DNA from: Kiritimatiellia bacterium | GTDB lineage: Bacteria > Verrucomicrobiota > Kiritimatiellia > CAIKKV01 | NCBI GenBank assembly: GCA_046484345.1 | Contig: JAWOJA010000088.1 | Location: forward strand, 8,271-72,270 | Length of the DNA: 64,000 nt | Direction of reading: 5' to 3' | In this document: in pieces, positions 1 to 10,845 of the stretch | Position numbering within the stretch: the stretch's first letter is position 1 | Layout of the letters: every line of letters starts with the position of its first letter | Program-made: the position numbers and the translations under genes | Notes under the pieces: model-generated | The model's input: only the letters and a program-made list of their open reading frames with translations | What the model was told of the DNA's origin: nothing | Database searches by the model: none

Positions 1-419
1 ACATCAATTAAAAAGCCTAACAGTCCTGACAGGAACTCATAATTCGGCTTTGGTTCATTACCGATAAAAGAAGACAACTTGCGGCCCGGTAGTAATTCCT
101 CGCTATATACCAGATAATTGCCCGCAGCAACAGTTACACACCTTGGCTCTAATGACCCAAGCCTGACGATACACGGAGCAGTACACAATCGAAGCGCTTC
201 AATTTCACGTTGAGCGCGAGCCGTTTGCTCTTCAATGTCCGTCAGTTCGAAACCATCCGCTTCCGTCGGTATATAAATTGCTTTAATCGCCTCGGTATGT
301 TTCGACTTGTCAACTCCCTTAAATACAACCTTAAAGCCCCCCTTATCGATGTAGGTAAGGTCAACAAACGCACCAAGGGCTTGTTTGAGTTGATCGATAT
401 CAGGGATCGGTATTCTCAT
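1..419 (-). CDS. Protein-kinase-like protein, N-terminal 139 codons only (ORF runs off the left edge)
   Basis: Hand translation of the minus strand from ATG at 419-417 gives 139 codons with no stop: MRIPIPDIDQLKQALGAFVDLTYIDKGGFKVVFKGVDKSKHTEAIKAIYIPTEADGFELTDIEEQTARAQREIEALRLCTAPCIVRLGSLEPRCVTVAAGNYLVYSEELLPGRKL... It matches Hanks subdomains I (KGGFKVVF G-loop), II (AIK lysine), III (REIEAL Glu) and the hinge (YSEELLPG). It is missing from the supplied ORF track because it has no stop in the window. Confidence 0.6.
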   Translation of the reverse strand, partial: MRIPIPDIDQLKQALGAFVDLTYIDKGGFKVVFKGVDKSKHTEAIKAIYIPTEADGFELTDIEEQTARAQREIEALRLCTAPCIVRLGSLEPRCVTVAAGNYLVYSEELLPGRKLSSFIGNEPKPNYEFLSGLLGFLID

Positions 420-478
420 GTATAATTCTCCATCATAGTTTCCGGTTCAATAGCGCTCATCCCTTCCAATGTCCCCCT

Positions 479-1837
479 CTACTCGGTATGAATTGTTACG
501 TCGTACCCCAAGGCATATAGCGCCTTGCTTGTGCGGCCATTGCGTGGCGGGAACTCTTTCGGGAGCGCCCAGCCAACGATCTCTCCGAAGGTGCTAAGTC
601 CCGCATGACGGATGCGCCGCGAAGCGGTGAAGGAAATCTCGAAAAGGCGCTCGGGAAGATCCGATTGTTCGCCACCATAAAGCAGGTATTTCAGAAGCTC
701 AAGGAAGGTTTCTCCCTTTTCCGTCTCCTCGCCATATAGTCTTTTTGCTAAATAGACACCACGTTCTTCGCTCGACATCTGCGGTAGTTTCTTCGAAAGA
801 CCCAACGATTTATAATTTGCTCGATCCGCATAATTACGAAAAGCGTGAACTTTTGTAAATACCTCTACAAATGTCTCTTCGTCAATGCTGCGAATCCTGG
901 AAGCGGACAGATTGCGTGCGATAAATGGAGCCCATTCATTCATGGTACGGTCTTCTGAACTAGGAGCGGTTTGAAGGTTACGCCACCATCTAGTAGCTTC
1001 CTCTAAAGCTTGGTGCGGTCGTTTTTTGTTATTCTCGTGATATTCTCGATGCCGGGCATTGCGTCCTTCCATAACACGGTTGTAGTAATAGGCGTGCAGG
1101 AACTGATCTGCCTGAACACCGGCAGGTATATTGGGCGCAACCCATGGTGGCCGATTTTCTGGTTGTGAAACTGTGATTGCAATGTCGCGAATATAACCCA
1201 AAGTACGATTCCATTCCTGAAGGAATTCCCGGCGCCGACGTTCACCCGAATTCGACTTCTTTTGAACAGAAACGAGGGAGTCTAGGCGAGGTATTTTCCG
1301 ATGCTCTTCAAAATCTTTCCGCATGCGTTCCAACTCGATGAATCGAGGATCTTCCTGATGCTTCTTAATTTCATCGACGAGTTCCTTTGTTAGGCCGTGG
1401 GCGACCTCATCGAGTTCGGCGAAGAAGGTTTCTAGTTCATCTGTGAGTCCTTCGTCCACGATTTCGTCCTGTGAAAGGAATAGTCCAGCTTCTATGTTTC
1501 CGAACCAGGCTTTTCGTGTAAGGTTGGCTGAGCCTATGTATACTCCGAATGACCGCCACCAGATGACCTTGGGGTGGAAAATATCGGGTACGAGCTTGCA
1601 AACCGCCAGCGGAGATTTACCTAGAAACCATTCTAGAATACTAACATTCACAGGCACGGTATAGTCGTATCGGGCCCAGAGACGAAACCGGATGCGCTTC
1701 TCATGGCAGGGCTTGATGAGGGAACTATCATCCATAACGTAAGCAACGGCAGCCCAGACCTCATCGCATTCCTGTAATGCGTCGCGGTTAAGCATATCTA
1801 TCGGCGATTGATGGTGAATTCCCCGAATGAGTTTCAT
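479..1837 (-). CDS. PLD-family (single HKD motif) nuclease with a large C-terminal domain of unknown function
   Basis: ORF 479..1909. The likely start is MKLIRG at 1837, whose ATG overlaps the hsdS stop (ATGA). The HKD-type motif FHPKVIWWRSFGVYIGSANLT has Nuc/BfiI-like spacing, HxK-x4-(R instead of D)-x6-GSxN. The C-terminal ~270 aa have no motif I recognise. The extreme C-terminus (AGLSTFGEIVGWALPKEFPPRNGRTSKALYALGY) looks helix-hairpin-helix-like. Confidence 0.85.
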   Translation of the reverse strand: MKLIRGIHHQSPIDMLNRDALQECDEVWAAVAYVMDDSSLIKPCHEKRIRFRLWARYDYTVPVNVSILEWFLGKSPLAVCKLVPDIFHPKVIWWRSFGVYIGSANLTRKAWFGNIEAGLFLSQDEIVDEGLTDELETFFAELDEVAHGLTKELVDEIKKHQEDPRFIELERMRKDFEEHRKIPRLDSLVSVQKKSNSGERRRREFLQEWNRTLGYIRDIAITVSQPENRPPWVAPNIPAGVQADQFLHAYYYNRVMEGRNARHREYHENNKKRPHQALEEATRWWRNLQTAPSSEDRTMNEWAPFIARNLSASRIRSIDEETFVEVFTKVHAFRNYADRANYKSLGLSKKLPQMSSEERGVYLAKRLYGEETEKGETFLELLKYLLYGGEQSDLPERLFEISFTASRRIRHAGLSTFGEIVGWALPKEFPPRNGRTSKALYALGYDVTIHTE

Positions 1838-3093
1838 TTTATCACCCTCGCTTCTCCCGTCAGCAGTTTTTGCATCAGCCCCTTCTTCTGATGCTCCAAC
1901 GCCGCACACTCGGTCTCCAACGCCTTGATCTCCTCATCGGCGGCGGAAAGAACGGCGGCGATGGCGCGTTGCTCGGCGAGAGCGGGAGAAGGGATCTTAA
2001 GGTTGAAAAAGTCGGCTGCGTTTAAATTCAAAAGCCCGTTGTTTCGCACGCCGGTGTTCACCCATTGCCGCAACTGTTCACCGTGAAGGCCCGAACGAAA
2101 GAACTGTTCTACAAAACCTTCGTCGGCGACTTCTGAAATCACGCGGAACGAAAAGAAGACATCCGGAACCAATCCTTCGTCATACTCGGACAACCGATAC
2201 GCACAACCCTGTGGAAATCTATATGAGTTACCCTTGTTGTATGCGAACTCGCCGCGTTTCAACAGTATGTAATTTTCAATATGACGGCCTGCAATAACCC
2301 TGCTGAACTTTTCTTCTTGCGAGACAAAGCCTGTGCCAGCCGTAATGCTTAACACCGCGTACCCTTTCGTCGATTTCGGGCTTTCTGTAATTCGCCTGGA
2401 AACCTGGGACATCTTTTTCACGGGCCATTTCCCTCCAAACCCCGGCAACCGCCTCTTACCCGTCAACAACTGCTGCATGAGCCCTTTTTTGCGGCGTTTG
2501 GCTGCGGCAACCAGGCGGCGGGCGTGCTCGATCGCCTCGTCCCAGGCGGACAGGATTTCAACGATTTTCTTTTGTTCGGGAAGAGGGGGGAGTGGCAGAG
2601 GTAGCGCTAGTAGTTTCTCTCTGGTTAGGTGTGCAATGCTGGTTCGCGAGGTAAGATTCAGAATAATCGGATCCTCTGTCATCCGGAATAAGAATGCCTG
2701 GGCAAACGCATTAAGGATCCGACCGTCCTTTGCTCGTAGTCTGTGAAGCGCCTTCTGAAAATAACAAGGGCGGATCTGTTCAGTCCATATCGCGCACCTA
2801 CCAGGTTCACCGCCTTCACAAACAAGAAGATCCCCTAAGCGCAACTCAAACTTTTTTCTTTCCGTTTCTGAGAAATCCATCTTCTGTATAAACGAATGGT
2901 CGAATGATGCCCAACGCACATTGAAGTTGGCTAAATACGGCTGAGGATCCTTCCCCACTCGGGCAAGGCTGCTTAACATTTTTCCTAGCTGAACATCATA
3001 GACTTCTCCAAGAGGCACGCACTCCCACTCCTCCGGAATCCACCCCACCTTGGTTTTCTTGTAGCCGGGCCGGTTGGCATTGCGGTCGGTCAT
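1834..3093 (-). CDS. hsdS: Type I restriction-modification specificity subunit HsdS (full length, two TRDs)
   Basis: 419 aa with two target-recognition regions. They are separated and followed by the conserved HsdS helices LPPLPEQKKIVEILSAWDEAIE...GLMQQLLTG and PSPALAEQRAIAAVLSAADEEIKALE...GLMQKLLTG. Confidence 0.9.
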   Translation of the reverse strand: MTDRNANRPGYKKTKVGWIPEEWECVPLGEVYDVQLGKMLSSLARVGKDPQPYLANFNVRWASFDHSFIQKMDFSETERKKFELRLGDLLVCEGGEPGRCAIWTEQIRPCYFQKALHRLRAKDGRILNAFAQAFLFRMTEDPIILNLTSRTSIAHLTREKLLALPLPLPPLPEQKKIVEILSAWDEAIEHARRLVAAAKRRKKGLMQQLLTGKRRLPGFGGKWPVKKMSQVSRRITESPKSTKGYAVLSITAGTGFVSQEEKFSRVIAGRHIENYILLKRGEFAYNKGNSYRFPQGCAYRLSEYDEGLVPDVFFSFRVISEVADEGFVEQFFRSGLHGEQLRQWVNTGVRNNGLLNLNAADFFNLKIPSPALAEQRAIAAVLSAADEEIKALETECAALEHQKKGLMQKLLTGEARVIK

Positions 3094-3263
3094 GGGATGC
3101 TCTTTCTGGAGAGTCGGGTTCGTGAGCGAACGGCTTCCGCCGACATGATCAAAATATCGCGTTTCCTATACATATCGCATTGAACCTGCATAGATTTGAT
3201 GCGTTCTGTCGCTCATACCGGCAATTCGGTGCCTTCGTTGAGAATATCGAGGTAGGTCGGATA

Positions 3264-3289
3264 TGTAAGGATACAGCATCATCCTTACA
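3264..3289 (-). terminator. Hairpin about 35 nt downstream of the hsdM stop (possible terminator or processing site)
   Basis: Perfect 9-bp stem TGTAAGGAT / ATCCTTACA with an 8-nt loop, inside the 229-bp lower-GC gap between hsdM and hsdS. No U-tract follows on the minus strand, so intrinsic-terminator function is doubtful. Confidence 0.2.
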
Positions 3290-3322
3290 AATACGGGTCT
3301 GTTGTGTAAGGTTCGCGGCATT

Positions 3323-4867
3323 TTAGAACCCCAACTCCTTCAAATATCCCCGCATCTTCTTCCGCGTTTCGCCCAGCTTTCCCTCGATCTCTTCGATTTC
3401 CTTCTGAACCGCCGCAATATCCACCTCCGGCTCGGGCTCAAAGGTGTCCACATACCGGGGGATATTCAGGTTGAACTCGTTTTCCTCAAGCTCGGTATAG
3501 GGTGCCAGACGGGAATATTTTGGGATCTCCTTGCGTCGGCGGAAGGTGTCCACAATCTTTTCGATATCCTCCGCCCGGAGCTTGTTCTGATTGGTGCCCT
3601 GCTCATACTCCCGGCTGGCATCAATAAACAACACCCCGCACTTCCCCTTGAGTTTGCGGCTCTTGTCGAAAATCAACAGTGCGGCCGGAATACCCGCCCC
3701 ATAGAACAGGTTGGCCGGCAAACCGACCACGCCATCCAGCAAATTCTCCTCGATCACGCTCTTGCGGATAGTCCCCTCGGCGCCCCCCCGAAACAGCACC
3801 CCGTGCGGCACCACCACCCCAACCCGCCCCTTGCCTTCCACTGCCGTGGCCAGCATGTGCAGCACGAAGGCCCAGTCCCCCTTGCTCTTGGGGGGAACGC
3901 CCCGTCCGAACCGGCCAAACCGGTCCCCGGAAGCCATCTCCTGGCCCCACTTGTCCAGACTGAACGGCGGATTGGCCACAACCACGTCAAACTTCATCAG
4001 CGCCGTGCCCTCCAGCAGCAGCGGGTGGCGAATGGTATCCTCCCACTCGATGCGGGCGGAATCCAGTCCGTGCAAAAACATGTTCATTTTGCACAAAGCC
4101 CAGGTGCTGCCGTTCATCTCCTGGCCGAACAGCGACACGTTCTGCCCGCCCGCCTCCGTGGCCGCCTTGATGAGCAGCGAACCCGAACCGCATGTGGGAT
4201 CGCAGATCCGGTCGCCCGGTTTCGGCCGCACCAGCTTGGCCAGGGTGACCGACACCTCTTTCGGCGTGTAAAATTCCCCCGCTTTTTTGCCCGCCTGCGA
4301 AGCGAACTTGGCAATCAGGTATTCATAGACATCGCCGATAATGTCCATGTGCCCGATGCGATCGGGCCGTAGATCGAGCTTGGGATCGGCAAAATCCTCC
4401 AGCAACGACTTCAGCCGCACGTTCCGTTGCCGCGTCTGGCCCAGGTTGGCCTCGCTGTTGAAGTCGATGTTGCGGAAGACGTTATGCAGCTTGTCCTTCT
4501 TGGCGTCTTCAATCGCCTCCAGGGTGATGTTGATGATCTCCCCGATCCGGGTGTTGCCGCGCCTTTCATAGAGACTATCGAAATTGCCGGGAAACGAATC
4601 ATCAACCTTCCCGTTCGTGTCTTTCAACTCCACTTGGGGCACAATGAACCGCTCCAGCGCCATGGCACGATCCACGCGGACCTTGTCACCTTTATACTTT
4701 TTCTCGTATTCCTCCCGCTTCGCCTTATGGACATCGCTCAGGTATTTGAGAAACAGCATGGTGAGGATGTAATCCTTGTACTGCGTCGGATCGATGACCC
4801 CGCGAAAGGTATCGCACGCTTTCCACACCACATTAAAAATCTCGTCGCGAATCTGATCGTCGTTCAT
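3323..4867 (-). CDS. hsdM: Type I R-M N6-adenine DNA methyltransferase HsdM
   Basis: 514 aa with an HsdM_N-like N-terminus (YILTMLFLKYLSD), an AdoMet site (DPTCGSGSLL) and the catalytic motif VVANPPFS. Its ATG overlaps the stop of the upstream half-size hsdS (ATGA at 4864-4867). Confidence 0.95.
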   Translation of the reverse strand: MNDDQIRDEIFNVVWKACDTFRGVIDPTQYKDYILTMLFLKYLSDVHKAKREEYEKKYKGDKVRVDRAMALERFIVPQVELKDTNGKVDDSFPGNFDSLYERRGNTRIGEIINITLEAIEDAKKDKLHNVFRNIDFNSEANLGQTRQRNVRLKSLLEDFADPKLDLRPDRIGHMDIIGDVYEYLIAKFASQAGKKAGEFYTPKEVSVTLAKLVRPKPGDRICDPTCGSGSLLIKAATEAGGQNVSLFGQEMNGSTWALCKMNMFLHGLDSARIEWEDTIRHPLLLEGTALMKFDVVVANPPFSLDKWGQEMASGDRFGRFGRGVPPKSKGDWAFVLHMLATAVEGKGRVGVVVPHGVLFRGGAEGTIRKSVIEENLLDGVVGLPANLFYGAGIPAALLIFDKSRKLKGKCGVLFIDASREYEQGTNQNKLRAEDIEKIVDTFRRRKEIPKYSRLAPYTELEENEFNLNIPRYVDTFEPEPEVDIAAVQKEIEEIEGKLGETRKKMRGYLKELGF

Positions 4868-5514
4868 GGCTGTGCTCCTGTTTCCTCAAAAGGCCGAAGT
4901 ATTTGTCGATTATAAAAGTCGAGCATTTCACGGCGCTTCCGGCCCAAGTCGGCCAGCAACGATTCTTCCTGCCGCGCCAACCGGTCGAGTTCAACCAGCG
5001 CAAGCTGGGTTTTGAGCGGAGGCAGCGGAATGACCAAGTTTTCCAGCATGGTCCGTCGGATGACGGGCAGATAGACACCGCTTCCGGCCTGGGCGGTTAG
5101 CGAGCGGATCACGGATTCCCGGTTCAAATACCACGCCAAGTAGTCGGCGTTCAAGTTGGACTCCGGGCGAAGTACGAAAAAATTAGCTGCCGCCAAGGAT
5201 GGTTCTGGAAGCGCCTCGATCGCATACGCAAATGGCCGCTGCCCTTTGGCCATAAACAGCACTTCCCCCGCGCACAAAGGTTTGACCGAAATGCTTGCCT
5301 CCGGGGTGAACCGCAGCAGTGCCGTCGCGTTTAACAAAGTCTTTGCACTGTCAAAATCCCCGATTTGCACCAAGTGATGCGACCCATTCGCATCCGGTAC
5401 CACCGCCCTGCGGGCGAGATAACCGGTTCGGATCGTAGCAAGCTGGCCTAGCGTCACACTCAATTCCTGCTCCAGTGTTAAAGCAACTGCACAGGAAATT
5501 ATACAATCACGCAA
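4864..5514 (-). CDS. Half-size (single-TRD) HsdS-like specificity protein
   Basis: 216-aa ORF with one TRD followed by an HsdS-type conserved helix (LVIPLPPLKTQLALVELDRLARQEESLL). The ORF-track start at 5514 is TTG and sits upstream of the predicted promoter -10 element. A TTG at 5463 preceded by GGAG, or the GTG at 5457, is the more likely start. Confidence 0.7.
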   Translation of the reverse strand: MRDCIISCAVALTLEQELSVTLGQLATIRTGYLARRAVVPDANGSHHLVQIGDFDSAKTLLNATALLRFTPEASISVKPLCAGEVLFMAKGQRPFAYAIEALPEPSLAAANFFVLRPESNLNADYLAWYLNRESVIRSLTAQAGSGVYLPVIRRTMLENLVIPLPPLKTQLALVELDRLARQEESLLADLGRKRREMLDFYNRQILRPFEETGAQP

Positions 5515-5524
5515 AAAATGTCAA
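5498..5524 (-). promoter_or_regulatory. Sigma70-like promoter for the half-hsdS/hsdM operon
   Basis: The minus strand reads TTGACA (5524-5519), a 15-nt spacer, then TATAAT (5503-5498). It lies at the GC-content boundary of the island. Confidence 0.4.
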
Positions 5525-5544
5525 TTATAATTGCAGTAATTCGT

Positions 5545-6189
5545 TTACTGCTTCAACACATTCGAGTGATTGGGCAGCCGGCGGATGCGCGGCAGGCCGA
5601 CTTTATAGCGCATGGCGAGCAGGCGCAGGATAAACGTTACCAATATGCAGGAAAAAAGCTGGGTGTTCAACGAATAGCCGCCGAGGCGGACCCCGTCAAA
5701 AACAATCGCCCCCGCAATGGCGGCGGTGGCATAAAAACCGGTCCGCAACACGGCCGGGATCTCGCGCACCAGCACGTCGCGCACCACGCCGCCGCCGGTG
5801 GCCGTAATGGCCGCCAGCATCAGGATCCCCACGTGCCCCAGGCCGGCCCCGGTCGCCTTCGCCGCACCCAGCGCCGCAAACACGCCAAGCCCCACGGCAT
5901 CGGCCGCCATCACGCCGTCCCACCAGGGGGCAATCCGCTTGGACGCCACAAAGACCACCAGCCCGCCGGCCAGGCAAATCAGCAGGTAGCGCTCGTCGCG
6001 GAAAGCGAAGGGCGTCCCATTACCCGCCATCAGGTCGGCCATGATCCCGCCGCCCACGCCCGTGGCGGTGGCCAGCACCAGCACGCCGAGCAGGTCCAGC
6101 TCATATTTGATGGCCCGGAAGGCGCCGGACAAAGCGAAGGCAAACGTGCCGAAGAGATCCAGCAAATTCAGCATGGCGGGCGCTTGCAT
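5545..6189 (-). CDS. Trimeric intracellular cation channel / UPF0126 (YadS-like) membrane protein
   Basis: Two UPF0126-type repeats (FGTFAFALSGAFRAI...GGGIMADL and ...TGGGVVRDVL). The likely start is MQAPAMLN at 6189 rather than the ORF maximum at 6231, which would overlap murA. Confidence 0.8.
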   Translation of the reverse strand: MQAPAMLNLLDLFGTFAFALSGAFRAIKYELDLLGVLVLATATGVGGGIMADLMAGNGTPFAFRDERYLLICLAGGLVVFVASKRIAPWWDGVMAADAVGLGVFAALGAAKATGAGLGHVGILMLAAITATGGGVVRDVLVREIPAVLRTGFYATAAIAGAIVFDGVRLGGYSLNTQLFSCILVTFILRLLAMRYKVGLPRIRRLPNHSNVLKQ

Positions 6190-6194
6190 AGTCT

Positions 6195-7469
6195 TCAGCC
6201 TTCCCTCACGAAGGCCGCGCCCAGCGAACACAGCTTCTCGTCGATCCGCTCATACCCGCGGTCCACGCACTGCGCGTTGTCCACCACGCTTTTGCCCTTG
6301 GCGCAAAGCGCGGCCAGGATCAGCGCCATGCCGGCGCGAATATCGGGACTGACCAGGTGCGAGCGGTGCAGCCGCGAGGGGCCCACCACCACCACGCGGT
6401 GCGGATCGCACTGCACGATGCGGGCGCCCATCTCGATCAGGCGGTCCACGAAATAGAGACGGCTCTCGAACATCTTCTCGTAAAAGATCACCGTGCCGGT
6501 CGCGCGGACGGCCATGACCACCGCCACGCTCATCAGGTCGGAGGGGAACGAGGGCCAGATGCCGTCCTCTATGCGGGGCACGGCGAAGCCGTAATCGTGC
6601 ATCACCCTCAGCTTGCGGTGGGCGGGCAGGCGCAGGGTTCCGCTCTCCATCGTAAAACCCGCGCCGAGCTTGCCGAACACCTGGGCGATGGGGCGCATGG
6701 TCTCGGGCGGCACCCCCTCCACGGTGAGCTCGCCGCCCGTGATGGCGGCGGCCGCCAGGTAGCTGCCGATCTCGATGTTGTCGGGCTGCACGGTGTAATC
6801 CGCCCCGCGCAGCACCGGCACCCCGTCGATGACGATCCGGTTCGTGCCGTGCCCGCTGATTTTGGCGCCCATGGCGATCAGCAGATTGCACAGGTCCTGC
6901 ACATGGGGCTCGCAGGCGGCATTGAAAACAACGGTCCGCCCCTCGGCCAGGCAGGCGGCCATGACGGTGTTTTCCGTGCCCGTCACGCTCGCTTCGTCGA
7001 GCAGGATGTCGGCGCCCTTCAACTTCTTCGCCGAAAACGAATAGTCCCGCGCGCCGCGCACCTCCACGCCCAGGGCCCGCATGGCCAGCAGATGCGTGTC
7101 GAGCCGGCGCCGGCCGATCACATCGCCCCCGGGCGGGGCGAGGGTGGCCCGGCCGAAGCGGGCGACCAGGGGGCCGGCCAGAAGGATGGAGGCCCGCAGG
7201 CGGGCGCAAAGGGCCGGATCCAGCCGCCGGCGCCGCAACCCCTTGGCGCAGACGCGCACGGCGCCGTCCTGCTCCTCGACCGCCGCGCCCAGGGCGCGGA
7301 GGATCTCGAGCATCACGCGCACATCCTCGATGCGCGGCACGCGGTGAAGCGTGACCGGCTCGTCGGTAAGCAGGCAGGCGGCCAGCATGGGAAGCGCGGC
7401 ATTCTTGTTGCCGCCGGGCGTGAGAACGCCCGACAACCGCCGGCCTCCTTCAATGACAAAACGGGCCAT
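6195..7469 (-). CDS. murA: UDP-N-acetylglucosamine 1-carboxyvinyltransferase
   Basis: 424 aa. The N-terminus FVIEGGRRLSGVLTPGGNKNAALPMLAACLL and overall EPSP-synthase-fold similarity are typical of MurA. Confidence 0.95.
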   Translation of the reverse strand: MARFVIEGGRRLSGVLTPGGNKNAALPMLAACLLTDEPVTLHRVPRIEDVRVMLEILRALGAAVEEQDGAVRVCAKGLRRRRLDPALCARLRASILLAGPLVARFGRATLAPPGGDVIGRRRLDTHLLAMRALGVEVRGARDYSFSAKKLKGADILLDEASVTGTENTVMAACLAEGRTVVFNAACEPHVQDLCNLLIAMGAKISGHGTNRIVIDGVPVLRGADYTVQPDNIEIGSYLAAAAITGGELTVEGVPPETMRPIAQVFGKLGAGFTMESGTLRLPAHRKLRVMHDYGFAVPRIEDGIWPSFPSDLMSVAVVMAVRATGTVIFYEKMFESRLYFVDRLIEMGARIVQCDPHRVVVVGPSRLHRSHLVSPDIRAGMALILAALCAKGKSVVDNAQCVDRGYERIDEKLCSLGAAFVREG

Positions 7470-7478
7470 GACCGGGCC

Positions 7479-9479
7479 TCACTTGACGGCGAGCAGCTCC
7501 TGAGCCACGCGCACAACGTTCTCCGGGGTGAACCCATATTTCTCGGCCAGCACCTGGTACGGGGCGGAGGCGCCGTAGTCGTCCAGTCCGATGATGGCCC
7601 CGCGGCAGCCCGTGTATTTCTGCCAGCCGGTCGTGGAGCCGGCCTCGATCGCCACGCGCTTGCGGCAGCCGTCGGGCAACACGCTCTGCTTGTAGGCGGG
7701 GTCCTGCTTCTCGAAATATTCCCAGGAGGGCATGCTTACCACGCGGACCTTGCACTGGGCGGCGAGCTGGCGGGCCGCCTCGAGGGCGAGCGACACTTCC
7801 GAGCCCGTGGCCATCAGGATCAGCTCCGGGTCGCCCGGCGCGCTGTCCCAGAGGATGTAGGCGCCCTTCTCGAGCGAATTGGCGGGCGGAAACGCCTTGC
7901 GGTCAATCACCGGCAGGTTCTGGCGGGTGAGCAGGATGGCCGTGGGGCCGTCCTTGTGCTTGAGCGCCGCGATCCAGGCCGCGCTGGTCTCGGTCGCATC
8001 GGCCGGCCGCAGAACCGTCATCCCGGGAATCAGCCGCAGGCTCATCGTCTGCTCGACGGGCTCGTGGGTGGGGCCGTCCTCGCCCACATAGAAGCTGTCG
8101 TGCGTGAACACGTAGATGACCGGCAGCTTCATGATGGCGGAGAGGCGGACCGAGGATTTGCAGTAATCGAGGAAGGAGAAGAACGTGGAGCCGAACACCC
8201 GCAACCCGCCGTGCTGCGCGAGGCCGTTCAGGAGGGCCGCCATCGCGTGCTCGCGGATGCCGAAGTGGAAGTTCACGCCCTTGAACGAGCCGGGGCCGAT
8301 GTCGCCCCCCCCGTCGATGTAGGTCTTGGTGCTGGGCGCCAGGTCGGCCGCGCCGCCCGCCAGGAACGGCAGGGCCTTGGCCAGTTTCTGCAGCACGAGC
8401 CCCGAGGCGTTGCGGGTGGCCACCGGCTTGGCCGGGTCAAACACGGGAAGCAGCTGGTCGAGGTTCGAGGGAATGCGGCCCTTCTGATAGACCTCCCACA
8501 TGCCCGCCTGTTCCGGATTCTTCTCGCGGTAAATCCGCATCAAATCCTTCCACTTGGCCAGGCGCTTCTCCATCTCCTTCGCGCGGGCGGCGAAGATGTC
8601 CCGCACCTCCGGGGAGACGAAGAAATGCTGGTCTTCAGGCAGGCCCAGCGCTTTCTTGGTGGCCGCGATCTCCTCTTCGCCCAGGGGCTCGCCGTGGCAC
8701 TTGTGGGAACCGGCCAGCTTCGGGGCGCCCTTGCCGATGGTCGAGTGGGCGATAATGAGCGTAGGCCGCTCCTTTTCGTTGCGGGCTTCCGCCAGCGTGC
8801 GGTCGATCTGGGCCAGGTCGTGCGCGTCCATCTCCAGCACGTTCCAGTGGTAGCCCTCGAAGCGCTTGCGGACATCGTCGCTATAGGCCAGCGAGGTGTT
8901 GCCCTCAATCGTGATGCGGTTGTAGTCGTAGATCAGGACCAGCTTGCTCAGACCGAGATGGCCGGCCAGCGAACAGGCTTCGTGGGAGATGCCTTCCATC
9001 ATGCAGCCGTCGCCGCAGATGACGTAGGTGCGGTGGTTGACGATCTCGCAATCCGTGGTGTTGAAGCGATCGGCCAGCATGCGCTCGCCGATTGCCATGC
9101 CGACGGCGTTGGCAATGCCCTGCCCCAGCGGGCCGGTGGTGGTTTCCACCCCCGCCGTGTGCCCGTATTCGGGATGGCCCGGGGTTTTGCTGCCCCATTG
9201 GCGGAATTTCTTCAATTCGTCGAGGGGCAGGTCGTAGCCGGCCAAGTGCAGCATGCTGTAAAGCAGCATCGAGCCGTGTCCGGCGGAAAGCACAAAGCGG
9301 TCGCGGTCCGGCCAGCTGGGATCGACCGGCGAATAGTTCAGGTGTTTGAGATAGAGCACGGCGGCGACATCGGCCATGCCCATGGGCATGCCGGGGTGAC
9401 CGGACTTGGCTTTCTGCACGCCGTCCATGGCGAGCCCACGAATAGTGTTGGCAACCTGGGTAAACTCGTTCATCGGCAT
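7479..9479 (-). CDS. tkt: Transketolase
   Basis: 666 aa with [30 protein letters not shown], the [13 protein letters not shown] ThDP motif and a full-length Tkt pattern. Confidence 0.95.
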
Positions 9480-9606
9480 CTCCTGGACTTCCTATTTAGC
9501 GTAAATGCAAGCCCAACTAGGATACGGAAAAGACGGCCCATGTCGAGCCTGATTCTTCGCCCTGACCATGGATGTGCGGGGTTTCGCGAATCGCAAAAAG
9601 TTAAGA

Positions 9607-9636
9607 TTGCGAATCCCATCGATGTTGCCTTATAAT
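9607..9636 (+). promoter_or_regulatory. Sigma70-like promoter placing the transcription start at or next to the ATG at 9643 (possible leaderless mRNA)
   Basis: TTGCGA (9607-9612), an 18-nt spacer, then TATAAT (9631-9636). Only 6 nt separate the -10 element from the ATG at 9643. A direct repeat GCGAATC...GCGAATC overlaps the -35 region. Confidence 0.35.
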
Positions 9637-9642
9637 TGTCGG

Positions 9643-10845
9643 ATGATCACGATCGCTAAAAGATTGTCAGGCCATGCCTGCATCCTTTCCCTGTTGTTGA
9701 TAGCGAACGGTTGTTCCGAGCAGAAAGGCCCCGATCTCAAGCTTCCGGAACCGCGAAAAGCGGTCCAAAAAGCGCCTGAAAAGGCCGCCGGTGCCGTTGT
9801 GCCCGCCGCTATGGAGCAGGTTGCCAAAAATAATGCCATTTTCAAGGAATATGTCCGACAATTAAAAGCCGGCGACCTGATTCAAGCCCAGGCTAATCTG
9901 GCGACCTTGAAGAGTCACCTCAAGGGCGAAAACCTGGATGATCCCTTCTGGAATGAGCGGATCCCGGCAGAATTCCGAAAAATCCTCCAGGTGGGGGCGC
10001 TCTGTTCCTCCTGTTTGGACGGTTCGTGCGCCTACTGTAAAGGAAAGGGCGACTGCCCGGCATGCCTGGGAAAAGGCCTGTGCAAAAGCTGCGAAGGCCG
10101 GGGTGGCACCCCTCGGGTCTGCACCAAATGCGTCTGTCCCACCTGCTCCGGGACCCGCCTCTGCACGGCGTGTAAAGGCCGCCGGTTCGTCACCTGCAGC
10201 ACCTGCAACGGGTCGGGAACGGGCCGTGAGGAGCGGAAATTCGAGCCTTGTCGTTCCTGCCGGGGGTTGGGCTGGAAAGAAGGCTTAAAGGCGGCCGGCG
10301 GAGTCGTAACCAAGCTCCGTTGCCTTCTTTGCGGCGGAACCAAGGGCGTCTACAACACCGTCCGCTTCCCCTGCGCGGTCTGCGACGGCGAGGGGCGGAG
10401 AAATTGCGCAAACTGCCAGGGCCTGGGCGTCTGCCCCTCCTGCAAGGGCCTGGGACGGCGCGGCGATTGCCTCATCTGCAAGGGGCGCGGCCGTTTTCTG
10501 GAGCCTTGCATCGACTGCAAGGGCACCCGGCAATGCGTGGAATGTGCGGGAACCAAGCTCTGCAAAAGATGCAAAGGCCGCCATACGTGCTCGGCCTGCG
10601 CGGCCCGCAACCTGCTCATCCGCTATAACATCCCCATCGATCAACGCTGGCTCGTCCAGCCCGAGGCAAAACTCATCCGGCTGGAAACGGAGGAGCTCTC
10701 CTATGAAACCCCCGCCGGAGCGCCCCTGACATTCCAATTCCGCGGAAGAACCCTATCCGCCGAACTGGAGGAAGGCCGCCTGCTGTGGGTTTCCGCCCCG
10801 GAGAATTTCAGGCGGATCCGCGACCTATTCACGCCGGAACCCTGA
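9643..10845 (+). CDS. Cysteine-rich putative lipoprotein with tandem DnaJ-type CxxCxGxG zinc-finger-like repeats
   Basis: From M26 of ORF 9568..10845 the protein starts MITIAKRLSGHACILSLLLIANGC, a signal peptide plus a lipobox-like ANGC. A helical segment follows, then 18 CxxC motifs, many as CxxCxGxG (e.g. CAYCKGKG, CPACLGKG, CKSCEGRG, CANCQGLG, CPSCKGLG, CLICKGRG). Confidence 0.8.
   Translation: MITIAKRLSGHACILSLLLIANGCSEQKGPDLKLPEPRKAVQKAPEKAAGAVVPAAMEQVAKNNAIFKEYVRQLKAGDLIQAQANLATLKSHLKGENLDDPFWNERIPAEFRKILQVGALCSSCLDGSCAYCKGKGDCPACLGKGLCKSCEGRGGTPRVCTKCVCPTCSGTRLCTACKGRRFVTCSTCNGSGTGREERKFEPCRSCRGLGWKEGLKAAGGVVTKLRCLLCGGTKGVYNTVRFPCAVCDGEGRRNCANCQGLGVCPSCKGLGRRGDCLICKGRGRFLEPCIDCKGTRQCVECAGTKLCKRCKGRHTCSACAARNLLIRYNIPIDQRWLVQPEAKLIRLETEELSYETPAGAPLTFQFRGRTLSAELEEGRLLWVSAPENFRRIRDLFTPEP

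What the first reader, a model, noticed from the sequence alone, without database searches (positions are those of the whole stretch)
1..5545. Type I R-M locus with no HsdR in view, carrying a PLD nuclease coupled to hsdS and a kinase-like gene
Seen in the sequence:
- A co-directional minus-strand array: half-size hsdS (4864-5514), hsdM (3323-4867, ATGA overlap), a 229-bp gap with a hairpin, full hsdS (1834-3093), a PLD nuclease (479-1837, ATGA overlap with the hsdS stop), a 58-bp gap, and a kinase-like ORF (1-419, open at the edge).
- No ORF anywhere in the window has HsdR/SF2-helicase features.
- The right flank is housekeeping (TRIC channel, murA).
- Hand-counted G+C of sample lines is 37% (1-60) and 47% (3301-3360), against 68% in murA (6301-6360). 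That fits a horizontally acquired island.

Established knowledge:
- Type I cleavage needs HsdR.
- PLD-fold nucleases serve as restriction endonucleases (BfiI, the R subunits of NgoAVII/CglI) and as defence components (DISARM DrmC, Mokosh).
- Type I loci are known hosts for embedded defence genes (prrC in EcoprrI).
- Ser/Thr kinases act in Pgl/BREX type 2 (PglW) and in Stk2 abortive infection.

Inference: there are two readings. PLD+kinase may be a guest defence cassette inside an hsd locus whose hsdR lies beyond the left edge. Alternatively, PLD+kinase may replace HsdR as the effector module of an M/S recognition complex. I know of no described system with the combination M + S + PLD + kinase.
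Basis: partly seen in the sequence, partly recalled or inferred. Interest (0 to 1): 0.72.

Follow-up and report, generated by a model that had tools for sequence, protein, structure and literature searches.

The report
Type I restriction locus carrying guest defence genes
This is the front part of an ordinary Type I restriction-modification operon whose cutting subunit almost certainly lies just past the window edge, and which carries two unrelated, uncharacterised guest genes (a PLD-type nuclease and a small protein kinase) rather than a new four-part system.

Summary
The gene array is real at the stated coordinates: short hsdS-like gene, hsdM, hsdS, a PLD-domain gene and a kinase 5' fragment, all on the minus strand. 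The ATGA overlaps, the hairpin and the low G+C are also confirmed.

The proposed M+S+PLD+kinase system is not supported.
- In all six closest loci with enough sequence (PLD 63-76% identical, HsdM 72-75%), a canonical 1066-1083-aa hsdR plus ygjP lies 10 nt to about 2.3 kb downstream of the PLD gene.
- The slot that holds the kinase here holds DUF3800, Schlafen-like genes or nothing there.
- The PLD protein belongs to a family of more than 1,200 constant-length proteins. Each has a single-HKD nuclease domain (closest solved structure SauUSI) plus a 270-aa all-helical domain with no match in PDB or BFVD.
- This family occurs as a lone gene beside Type I (with hsdR always present), Type III, BREX, Hma/DUF499 and Septu systems, beside housekeeping genes, and on 28 viral contigs.
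- The kinase belongs to a family of about 295 aa resembling PD-T4-6. In relatives it is always followed by a conserved partner of about 400 aa, often sits after hsdS, and is once fused to HsdS.
- PLD and kinase never co-occur elsewhere.

Verdict: a Type I locus with two independent embedded candidate defence modules, which is a known phenomenon.

The parts
5533..5551 (-). Terminator-like hairpin at the 3' end of the TRIC-like gene. It marks the right boundary of the low-G+C island.
   Evidence: The terminator scan found GCAGTAAACGAATTACTGC followed by an A/T-rich tail. G+C drops from about 0.65-0.68 to about 0.53-0.56 here.
5498..5524 (-). Promoter-like element: TTGACA, 15-nt spacer, TATAAT. 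It is the candidate promoter of the hsd operon.
   Evidence: Read directly from the sequence. The consensus scan did not report it because the spacer is 15 nt. Its function is inferred.
4864..5514 (-). Short (half-size) hsdS-like gene. The likely true start is TTG 5463. Its stop overlaps the hsdM start (ATGA).
   Evidence: PADLOC Specificity_I E 1e-14 and Methylase_S E 0.002. A 192-214-aa homologue (34-48% identical) sits in the same position in L001, L004, L007 and L008.
3323..4867 (-). hsdM, the Type I N6-adenine DNA methyltransferase subunit.
   Evidence: N6_Mtase 8e-102, HsdM_N 7e-25, and TIGR00497 at 291 bits, above its cut-off. It is 72-75% identical to HsdM of L001, L004, L007 and L008.
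3258..3295 (-). Hairpin in the 229-bp hsdM-hsdS spacer. In relatives this spacer is a cargo slot.
   Evidence: Inverted repeat of 15 nt, 87% complementary, with an 8-nt loop. No T-run follows it. In L001 the same slot holds CBASS genes, and in the P0002 contig it holds two ORFs.
1834..3093 (-). Full-size hsdS with two target-recognition domains.
   Evidence: Two Methylase_S stretches and a full-length PADLOC Specificity_I match, 7e-82. The C-terminal half is 65% identical to the L001 HsdS while the N-terminal TRD differs.
479..1837 (-). PLD-CTD gene. Residues 1-175 form a single-HKD PLD-fold nuclease domain (H88, K90, G102-S103-x-N105). Residues 186-452 form an all-helical domain of unknown fold ending in a conserved GLSTxGEIVGW...PPRNGRTSKAL motif.
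   Evidence: Invariant residues in a 44-sequence alignment. AlphaFold model with pLDDT 90.5. Foldseek matches to SauUSI 7clg (E 5e-6), NucT, Nuc, Zucchini and BfiI, and a profile match to 7clg. The CTD model has pLDDT 91.7 and pTM 0.88, with no PDB or BFVD match. The family has 1,219 homologues.
1..419 (-). 5' part (139 of about 295 codons) of a Hanks-type Ser/Thr kinase gene of a PD-T4-6-like family. It carries the glycine-rich loop, K46 and E72. The rest lies beyond the window edge.
   Evidence: Translation. The exhaustive search gave 117 relatives, with full-length members of 292-306 aa. These match Pkinase at 1e-23 to 1e-32 and have the K/E/HRDxKPxN/DLG/APE motifs. PADLOC PD-T4-6 scores 1e-36 to 1e-38 for the full-length relatives.

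Best explanation
Window 1-5514 (minus strand) is the promoter-proximal part of a horizontally acquired Type I restriction-modification operon. Its framework, seen in relatives, is short-S / M / S ... R / YgjP.

Shown:
- hsdM, hsdS and a short hsdS-like gene are present.
- The closest relatives of this locus carry a canonical hsdR and a ygjP-like gene downstream of the PLD gene.
- The intervals M-S, S-PLD and PLD-R hold different cargo in different relatives (CBASS, Olokun, DUF3800, Schlafen-like genes).

Inferred:
- hsdR lies a few kb beyond the left edge, and M2S1 / R2M2S1 complexes methylate and restrict as in any Type I system.
- The PLD-CTD gene is an autonomous one-gene unit. Its single HKD motif implies a dimer forming one active site, as in Nuc, BfiI and SauUSI, that cuts nucleic acid. 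The helical C-terminal domain, with a helix-hairpin-helix-like end, would give substrate recognition. Its recurrence at the tail of methylation-based systems suggests a backup or complementary nuclease, for example against DNA that escapes methylation-based restriction.
- The kinase fragment is the first gene of a separate two-gene cassette (kinase of about 295 aa plus a translationally coupled partner of about 400 aa). This cassette probably acts like PD-T4-6/Stk2-type kinases, by phosphorylation triggered on infection. The partner gene is predicted to follow just beyond the edge.
For: Synteny in the closest loci:
- L007 and the P0002 contig (PLD 76% identical): short-S, M, [cargo], S, [cargo], PLD, HsdR (10-11-nt gap), YgjP.
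- L001-L003 (67%), L004/L005 (63%) and L008 (65%): the same frame with 1-2 cargo genes between PLD and HsdR.
- HsdM is 72-75% identical and the short S-like gene is conserved.

PLD autonomy:
- The family has 1,219 homologues of constant length, about 452 aa.
- In 80 genome loci no neighbour is universally conserved.
- Upstream co-directional neighbours include HsdR (5 loci), HmaC/DUF499 (5), BrxL, a Type III Res subunit, PtuA/PtuB, OloB, and also housekeeping genes.
- 28 viral contigs carry it, and none shows a gene matching this locus's Type I proteins within 6 kb.
- It stands alone on plasmids, annotated as 'phospholipase D family protein'.

hsdR is always present where Type I genes are: the four loci that looked like M-S-x-PLD carry an EcoEI-type HsdR upstream.

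PLD fold and motif.

Kinase cassette:
- Arrangements seen are hsdM-SLFN-hsdS-kinase-partner...hsdR-DUF1016-YgjP (L171-L173), hsdS-kinase-partner (L088), an HsdS::kinase fusion (P0146), and one context without Type I genes (L169/L170).
- The partners are 37-40% identical to one another and have about 780 homologues, all called hypothetical.

PLD and kinase are independent.

The general phenomenon of defence genes embedded in Type I, BREX, DISARM and Hma loci is described in bioRxiv 10.1101/2024.01.29.577857. TgvAB is an example embedded in a Type I operon (PMC11411939).
Against: - hsdR itself was not seen. The window ends inside the kinase gene and exact-sequence look-ups of the source contig failed, so its presence rests on synteny in six relatives.
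- In the closest clade the PLD gene is retained while other cargo turns over, and here it is translationally coupled to hsdS. That would also fit a functional tie to this Type I lineage.
- No activity of any component has been tested.
- The C-terminal domain has no recognisable fold, so the substrate (DNA, RNA or lipid) is inferred only from the nuclease-like PLD relatives.
- The PLDc_2 score (26.8) is marginally below Pfam's cut-off (27).
Confidence: 0.72

Rival explanations
1. PLD-CTD is not autonomous. It would be an accessory or backup effector that docks onto, or is licensed by, methylation-based complexes (Type I M2S1, BREX, Hma/DUF499, Type III). It could also act as a guard that fires when those complexes are inhibited, in the manner of PrrC with EcoprrI.
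For: - It is translationally coupled to hsdS here (ATGA) and to the preceding gene in relatives.
- It is retained in all six closest Type I loci while neighbouring cargo changes.
- It sits directly after the last gene of four kinds of methylation-based system: Type I (three HsdR types), Type III, BREX-1 and Hma.
- PLD nucleases are effectors of methylation-based systems in MANTIS (bioRxiv 10.64898/2026.09.23.753747). Auxiliary nucleases around BREX are described in PMC12839542.
Against: - Most of the 80 genome loci and all 28 viral loci show no detected methylation-based partner nearby. Some neighbours are housekeeping genes.
- One conserved protein is unlikely to dock onto four unrelated complexes.
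- Co-location of defence genes is common without any interaction.
Confidence: 0.17
2. One reading: PLD (with the kinase) replaces HsdR as the cleavage module of the M/S recognition complex, making an R-less Type I-like system.
For: - There is no hsdR in the 64-kb window.
- The PLD start overlaps the hsdS stop.
- Precedents exist for PLD nucleases as effectors: NgoAVII/CglI (PMC4267654) and MANTIS MtsD.
Against: - All six closest loci have a full hsdR plus ygjP downstream of the PLD gene.
- All other Type I-linked PLD loci examined have an hsdR.
- PLD and kinase never co-occur elsewhere.
- PLD-CTD has no motor domain, unlike NgoAVII N-subunit partners, SauUSI or MtsD.
Confidence: 0.04
3. The locus is a decaying or methylation-only remnant. 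hsdR would have been lost, or the island truncated on the left, leaving M+S as an orphan methyltransferase with unrelated passenger genes.
For: - hsdR was not observed.
- One kinase relative is interrupted by an IS element (L006).
- The PLD gene is frameshifted in L013, and a fragment of it survives next to a Tn7-like element on Klebsiella plasmids. Decay of these genes therefore does occur.
Against: - All five ORFs in view are intact, with coupled starts.
- The window simply ends mid-gene.
- The source contig is recorded as 81,199 nt, so more sequence exists.
Confidence: 0.05
4. The PLD-CTD protein is not a defence nuclease at all. It could be, for example, a lipid-acting PLD enzyme or a mobile-element maintenance factor.
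For: - The PLD superfamily includes phospholipid enzymes, and phosphatidylserine synthase appears among the Foldseek matches.
- Some neighbours are housekeeping genes.
- It is carried on plasmids and viral contigs.
Against: - The best structural and profile matches are nucleases (SauUSI, NucT, Nuc, Zucchini, BfiI).
- It has a single HKD copy, as in the nuclease branch.
- There is strong enrichment next to restriction, BREX, Hma, Septu and Olokun genes.
- No membrane or secretion features were noted.
Confidence: 0.05

Closest known systems
Defence genes embedded in Type I R-M operons (PrrC in EcoprrI; rlo genes in Campylobacter; TgvAB in Vibrio cholerae VPI-2, PMC11411939; 'guilt-by-embedding' survey, bioRxiv 10.1101/2024.01.29.577857)
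   Same: Unrelated defence-type genes sit between hsdS and hsdR of an otherwise canonical Type I operon. The cargo differs between related loci. The same cargo families also occur embedded in BREX and Hma loci.
   Different: The two cargo families here are not among the characterised examples. The PLD-CTD protein and the kinase partner have no full-length PADLOC or Pfam model. No ABC ATPase/anticodon nuclease (PrrC) or GmrSD domains are present.
SauUSI, Nuc/NucT and BfiI: PLD-family (single-HKD) nucleases
   Same: The N-terminal 175 residues share the PLD fold and the HxK...GSxN motif. The best solved match is the SauUSI nuclease domain. A single HKD copy implies dimerisation to form one active site.
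   Different: There is no helicase/ATPase domain (SauUSI, MANTIS MtsD) and no B3-like DNA-binding domain (BfiI, R.NgoAVII). Instead there is a 270-aa helical domain with no structural relative in PDB or BFVD.
DISARM DrmC
   Same: It is a PLD-domain protein found in a methylation-associated defence locus, with weak HKD-region matches.
   Different: It scores 24 bits against a cut-off of 133 for NF038319, and only about 50 residues match. No DrmA/DrmB neighbours are present. It is roughly twice the size of DrmC and has an extra domain.
PD-T4-6 / Stk2-type single-gene Ser/Thr kinase defences
   Same: Full-length relatives of the kinase fragment match PD-T4-6 models end to end (E 1e-36 to 1e-38). 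They have all catalytic motifs of Hanks-type kinases.
   Different: This family is always followed by a conserved, translationally coupled partner of about 400 aa with no known domain. It often lies after hsdS and is once fused to HsdS. Only 139 residues are in the window.
MADS (methylation-associated defence system, bioRxiv 10.1101/2023.03.30.534895)
   Same: It combines a methylase, an HsdS-like specificity subunit and a kinase-domain protein in one operon. The mad6 kinase domain is among the best PADLOC matches of the kinase family.
   Different: HsdM and HsdS here score far below the MAD2/MAD5 cut-offs (47 against 720 bits; 26 against 400 bits), while hsdM passes the canonical hsdM model. 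The kinase is about 295 aa, not the roughly 659-aa MAD6. No mad7 or mad8 is seen.

Membership tests
Type I restriction-modification system | HsdM: N6-adenine methyltransferase with HsdM_N domain | tested here: met
   N6_Mtase 8e-102, HsdM_N 7e-25, and TIGR00497 at 291 bits, above the cut-off of 242.75.
Type I restriction-modification system | HsdS with two target-recognition domains | tested here: met
   Two Methylase_S stretches and a full-length PADLOC Specificity_I match, 7e-82.
Type I restriction-modification system | HsdR (SF2 motor plus nuclease) encoded in the locus | tested here: inconclusive
   It is absent from the whole window, but the window ends inside the cargo region. It is present downstream of the PLD gene in all six closest loci.
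Type I restriction-modification system | Sequence-specific methylation and ATP-dependent restriction | not testable with these tools
   This needs methylome data or restriction assays.
PLD-superfamily nuclease (Nuc/BfiI/SauUSI branch) | HxK...GSxN catalytic motif | tested here: met
   H88, K90, G102, S103 and N105 are invariant in 44 homologues.
PLD-superfamily nuclease (Nuc/BfiI/SauUSI branch) | PLD alpha/beta fold | tested here: met
   The AlphaFold model has pLDDT 90.5. Foldseek gives 7clg at E 5e-6, plus NucT, Nuc, Zucchini and BfiI.
PLD-superfamily nuclease (Nuc/BfiI/SauUSI branch) | Pfam PLDc_2 above the gathering score | tested here: inconclusive
   It scores 26.8 bits against a cut-off of 27, on residues 83-129 only. 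Many homologues carry a precomputed PF13091 hit.
PLD-superfamily nuclease (Nuc/BfiI/SauUSI branch) | Nuclease activity through a phosphohistidine intermediate | not testable with these tools
   This needs biochemistry.
DISARM (DrmC) | DrmC equivalog score, with DrmA/DrmB (DUF1998 helicase) neighbours | tested here: not met
   NF038319 scores 24.1 bits against a cut-off of 133. No such neighbours are present in the window or in the close loci.
SauUSI-like Type IV restriction enzyme | PLD nuclease fused to an SF2 helicase and a target-recognition domain | tested here: not met
   Only the PLD domain aligns (167 columns). Residues 186-452 are helical with no helicase motifs and no PDB match.
PD-T4-6 kinase defence | Full-length match to PD-T4-6 kinase models | tested here: inconclusive
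   The window fragment scores E 0.003. Full-length relatives (43-47% identical to the fragment) score 1e-36 to 1e-38. The gene is cut by the window edge.
PD-T4-6 kinase defence | Single-gene system | tested here: not met
   In relatives the kinase is always followed by a conserved, overlapping partner of about 400 aa.
MADS | MAD2 and MAD5 equivalog scores; MAD6/7/8 mandatory | tested here: not met
   MADS2 scores 47 bits against 720 and MADS5 scores 26 against 400. Only a kinase N-lobe resembles mad6. No mad7 or mad8 is in view.

The most novel reading that the evidence does not exclude
The embedded genes may be guards wired to the Type I machinery rather than passengers. Three observations point this way:
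- the translational coupling of PLD-CTD to hsdS;
- its recurrence directly after the last gene of Type I, Type III, BREX and Hma systems;
- a natural HsdS::kinase fusion (P0146).

PLD-CTD and/or the kinase-partner pair might bind the M/S complex, or sense its inhibition by phage anti-restriction proteins, and then fire. That would be a PrrC-like logic carried out with a new nuclease architecture (PLD plus an unknown helical fold) and a kinase.
Probability: 0.18. Interest if true: 0.75.

Novelty: new member of a known kind. Interest (0 to 1): 0.4.

Why it matters
The headline idea, a Type I-like system that cuts with a PLD nuclease and a kinase instead of HsdR, does not hold. The locus is a further example of Type I operons acting as landing pads for other defence genes.

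Two large, unnamed protein families remain and could be tested as defence candidates:
- The PLD-CTD family has more than 1,200 members. It follows restriction, BREX and Hma systems across many phyla, and its C-terminal domain has no known structural relative.
- The kinase plus 400-aa partner cassette has about 780 partner homologues, with one natural fusion to HsdS.

Showing what the PLD's helical domain recognises, or why a kinase is fused to a specificity subunit, could reveal how layered defences are coordinated.

Tried and rejected
- Exact-sequence look-ups of the window's PLD (two alternative starts) and hsdS, meant to recover the source contig and read leftwards, found nothing. The PLD protein is nevertheless listed from an 81,199-nt contig.
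- The word-indexed search with the 139-aa kinase fragment gave one hit, an IS-interrupted gene. The exhaustive search was needed.
- The metagenome scan with the kinase alignment used the generic HRDxKPxN motif. Apart from one closer relative (L089, 35% identical), it returned ordinary kinases at 25-36% identity with no hsd genes nearby, so it says little about this family.
- Three home-made ORF callers for the 80 genome loci were unreliable in high-G+C DNA, producing shadow ORFs and over-trimming. I dropped them. Instead I used homology to reference proteins, all-against-all clustering, and family scans of the nearest co-directional upstream ORF.
- phmmer with HsdR references from one Type I family missed EcoEI-type HsdR. 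The count of about 21 of 86 Type I-linked loci is therefore a lower bound.
- Foldseek searches of the C-terminal domain against PDB and BFVD gave nothing, and Pfam, NCBIfam and PADLOC have no model for it. My helix-hairpin-helix reading of its last 40 residues is by eye only.
- About 1,200 Klebsiella and Enterobacter plasmid hits turned out to be a 41-residue match to an 87-aa ORF next to a Tn7-like tnsE. This is probably a gene remnant and not informative.
- DrmC, ZacB and PDC-M27B matches cover only the HKD motif and were not taken as membership.

Full report
OBSERVATION. The minus-strand array is real.
- ORFs lie at 4864-5514 (short hsdS-like), 3323-4867 (hsdM), 1834-3093 (hsdS) and 479-1837 (PLD), with an edge-truncated ORF at 1-419.
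- hsdM matches N6_Mtase (8e-102) and HsdM_N, and passes the NCBIfam hsdM equivalog at 291 bits against a cut-off of 242.75.
- hsdS has two Methylase_S stretches and a full-length PADLOC Specificity_I match.
- The short gene is a weaker but clear S-like protein (PADLOC 1e-14).
- Both ATGA overlaps are real. The 58-nt gap before the kinase ATG carries a GGAG, and the hand-counted G+C values are exact.
- The hairpin in the 229-bp M-S spacer is at 3258-3272/3281-3295 and has no T-run after it.
- The island (52.5% G+C) abuts a TRIC-like Gly_transporter gene and a murA-like ORF in 65-69% G+C DNA. No tRNA lies nearby.
- tblastn with three HsdR and two YgjP proteins from related loci finds nothing anywhere in the 64 kb.
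- One correction: a TTGACA-N15-TATAAT element at 5524-5498 lies inside the mechanical ORF of the short S-like gene, and homologues align only from about residue 19. The real start is therefore probably TTG 5463.

WHERE IS hsdR? Exact look-ups of the window's own proteins failed, so I used relatives. The PLD protein has 1,219 homologues of nearly constant length. The closest ones on long contigs all sit in the same Type I framework.
- L007 and the P0002 contig (76% identical): short-S, M, [cargo], S, [cargo], PLD, then a 1077-1083-aa HsdR after a 10-11-nt gap, then a YgjP-like gene.
- L001-L003 (67%): short-S, M, CBASS genes, S, two large ORFs, PLD, DUF3800 plus one ORF, HsdR, YgjP.
- L004/L005 (63%): short-S, M, S, PLD, Schlafen-AlbA_2 plus one ORF, HsdR, YgjP.
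- L008 (65%, a Victivallales MAG): the same frame, with OloB (Olokun) just upstream of PLD and DUF3800 downstream.

HsdM of these loci is 72-75% identical to the window's. The rank order of PLD identity follows that of HsdM, and the short S-like gene is conserved. These are orthologous loci. The window simply ends in the variable interval between PLD and hsdR. Where the window has a kinase, the relatives have DUF3800, a Schlafen-like gene, or nothing.

THE PLD GENE.
- Only residues 83-129 hit Pfam PLDc_2, at 26.8 bits against a cut-off of 27.
- H88, K90, G102, S103 and N105 are invariant in 44 diverse homologues.
- An AlphaFold model (pLDDT 90.5) shows a PLD alpha/beta domain in residues 1-175, followed by an all-helical domain.
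- Foldseek against PDB matches the N-domain to the nuclease domain of the Type IV enzyme SauUSI (7clg, E 5e-6), then to NucT, Zucchini, Nuc and BfiI. A sequence profile also finds 7clg.
- The C-terminal domain modelled alone is confident (pLDDT 91.7, pTM 0.88) but has no match in PDB or BFVD, with best E of 2 or more. It has no Pfam, NCBIfam or PADLOC model.
- Its last 40 residues (GLSTxGEIVGW...PPRNGRTSKAL) are the most conserved part. By eye they resemble a helix-hairpin-helix. This is inference only.

IS THE PLD GENE TIED TO TYPE I SYSTEMS? I fetched 80 loci from species-representative genomes spanning Verrucomicrobiota, Nitrospirota, Alpha-, Beta- and Gammaproteobacteria, and Bacteroidota.
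- No neighbour family is universal. The commonest conserved neighbours are HsdM, HsdR, HsdS and YgjP, in 13-17 of 86 loci each.
- Arrangements differ: M-S-R-YgjP-PLD (L042, L045, L046, L052, L075), M-S-R-PLD (L053), and R-M-S-[Septu or other cargo]-PLD with an EcoEI-type HsdR (L010, L013, L017, L087).
- Elsewhere the gene directly follows BREX-1 brxL in Klebsiella oxytoca (L060), and the DUF1156 methylase plus DUF499/HmaC pair of Hma (BREX-related) systems (L041, L044, L049, L059).
- It also follows a Type III Res subunit (L077), a Mokosh-like helicase (L039), a Tiamat-like protein (L068) and PIN-TPR proteins. In several loci it follows plain housekeeping genes.
- 28 IMG/VR viral contigs carry it, with no gene matching this locus's Type I proteins within 6 kb.
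- On plasmids it stands alone and is annotated 'phospholipase D family protein'.
- In every Type I-linked case that I could resolve, an hsdR is present.

The family therefore behaves as a mobile one-gene unit with a marked liking for the tail of methylation-based defence loci. It does not behave as a substitute for HsdR.

THE KINASE.
- The 139-residue fragment carries the glycine-rich loop, K46 and E72.
- An exhaustive HMMER search found 117 relatives. Full-length members are 292-306 aa, are good Pkinase matches, and have the HRDxKPxN, DLG and APE motifs.
- They match PADLOC PD-T4-6 models end to end (1e-36 to 1e-38) and the kinase domain of MADS mad6.
- In every context recovered, the kinase is followed, with a 4-nt overlap, by a conserved protein of about 400 aa. 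These partners are 37-40% identical between contexts, have no Pfam or PADLOC hit, and have about 780 homologues, all called 'hypothetical'.
- L171-L173 read hsdM, Schlafen-like, hsdS, kinase, partner, ..., hsdR, DUF1016, YgjP. L088 reads hsdS, kinase, partner.
- P0146 is a 742-aa HsdS::kinase fusion directly after hsdM. L169/L170 have no Type I genes nearby.
- None of these loci has the PLD gene, and none of the 86 PLD loci has this kinase family.

The window's kinase is thus the first gene of a second, independent embedded cassette. Its partner should lie just beyond the edge.

MECHANISM.
- Shown: domain content, synteny, and the independence of the two cargo modules.
- Inferred for the host system: M2S1 methylates and R2M2S1 restricts, as in any Type I system. 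The short S-like protein may provide a second specificity or a regulatory role.
- Inferred for PLD-CTD: it dimerises to build one HKD site and cuts nucleic acid selected by its helical domain. It would act as a complementary or backup nuclease.
- Inferred for the kinase pair: it acts like other defence kinases, by phosphorylation on infection.
- A minority view that I cannot exclude (about 0.17-0.2) is that PLD-CTD or the kinase pair is physically or functionally wired to the M/S complex, as PrrC is to EcoprrI. The coupling to hsdS, the retention of the PLD gene in the closest clade and the HsdS::kinase fusion all point that way.

COMPARISON WITH KNOWN SYSTEMS.
- The phenomenon of defence genes embedded in Type I, BREX, DISARM and Hma operons is established. 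Examples are PrrC, the rlo genes and TgvAB (PMC11411939), the systematic survey of Payne et al. (bioRxiv 10.1101/2024.01.29.577857), and the auxiliary effectors around BREX (PMC12839542).
- PLD nucleases as effectors of methylation-based systems are also known, in DISARM DrmC, NgoAVII (PMC4267654) and MANTIS MtsD (bioRxiv 10.64898/2026.09.23.753747).
- This protein fails the DrmC model (24 against 133 bits) and has no motor domain.
- The combination methylase + S subunit + kinase exists in MADS (bioRxiv 10.1101/2023.03.30.534895). The MAD2 and MAD5 models are far from met.

VERDICT.
- The 'guest genes with hsdR off-window' reading is supported, with the correction that there are two separate guests.
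- The 'HsdR replaced' reading is not supported.
- Novelty is limited to two uncharacterised candidate defence families found in a known kind of arrangement.

Noticed in passing
window 5498-5524 and 5461-5473 (minus strand): A near-consensus TTGACA-N15-TATAAT lies inside the mechanical ORF of the short hsdS-like gene. A GGAG then precedes a TTG at 5463. The gene probably starts there, giving about 199 aa rather than 216.
   Followed up: partly
window 4864-5514; L001 72-680, L004 6582-7160, L007 864-1508: A half-size HsdS-like gene overlapping the hsdM start is conserved across this Type I lineage, alongside a full-size hsdS. It could give a second (palindromic) specificity or have another role.
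   Followed up: partly
P0146 (742 aa; JGI 3300048101 contig, gene 5316-7544): A natural fusion of an HsdS (Methylase_S) domain to the same kinase family, encoded directly after an HTH-HsdM gene. This is a Rosetta-stone hint of a functional link between this kinase family and Type I specificity subunits.
   Followed up: partly
L171 10882-12081; L169 3682-4890; L088 1629-2195: A conserved protein of about 400 aa always follows the kinase with a 4-nt overlap. It has no Pfam or PADLOC match and about 780 homologues, all annotated 'hypothetical'. Kinase plus partner looks like an undescribed two-gene cassette.
   Followed up: partly
window 482-1282 (PLD residues 186-452): A confidently modelled all-helical domain (pLDDT 91.7, pTM 0.88) has no structural match in PDB or BFVD and no family model.
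   Followed up: yes
L001 2175-5027; L008 7804-9561; L007 4275-7795: Related Type I loci carry other embedded systems in the same slots. L001 has CBASS (SAVED, SMODS, E2) between hsdM and hsdS. L008 has an Olokun OloB-like gene just upstream of the PLD gene. The 599- and 571-aa ORFs in L007 are probably the same pair.
   Followed up: partly
L060 1319-11350 (Klebsiella oxytoca NBRC 105695): A PLD-CTD homologue sits directly after brxL of a complete-looking BREX type 1 locus (PglX, PglZ, BrxL).
   Followed up: partly
L174 4869-5132 (Klebsiella pneumoniae plasmid NZ_CP031582.1) and about 1,200 similar plasmids: An 87-aa 'hypothetical protein' next to a Tn7-like tnsE is 73% identical to the last 41 residues of the PLD-CTD protein. 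It is probably a gene remnant spread with these plasmids.
   Followed up: partly
L013 10001-11362 (Methylotuvimicrobium sp. KM1 chromosome): The PLD-CTD homologue, and the adjacent hsdM, are each split into two ORFs. This suggests frameshifts or decay in that genome.
   Followed up: no
L004 1-1487 and 18634-19779: The related Type I/PLD island in this 5-Mb contig is flanked by terminase and Mu-type portal genes and an IS110 transposase. It may therefore sit inside a prophage.
   Followed up: no
window 9251-10000: A second local G+C dip (0.52-0.55) occurs just beyond the transketolase-like ORF. I did not examine it.
   Followed up: no
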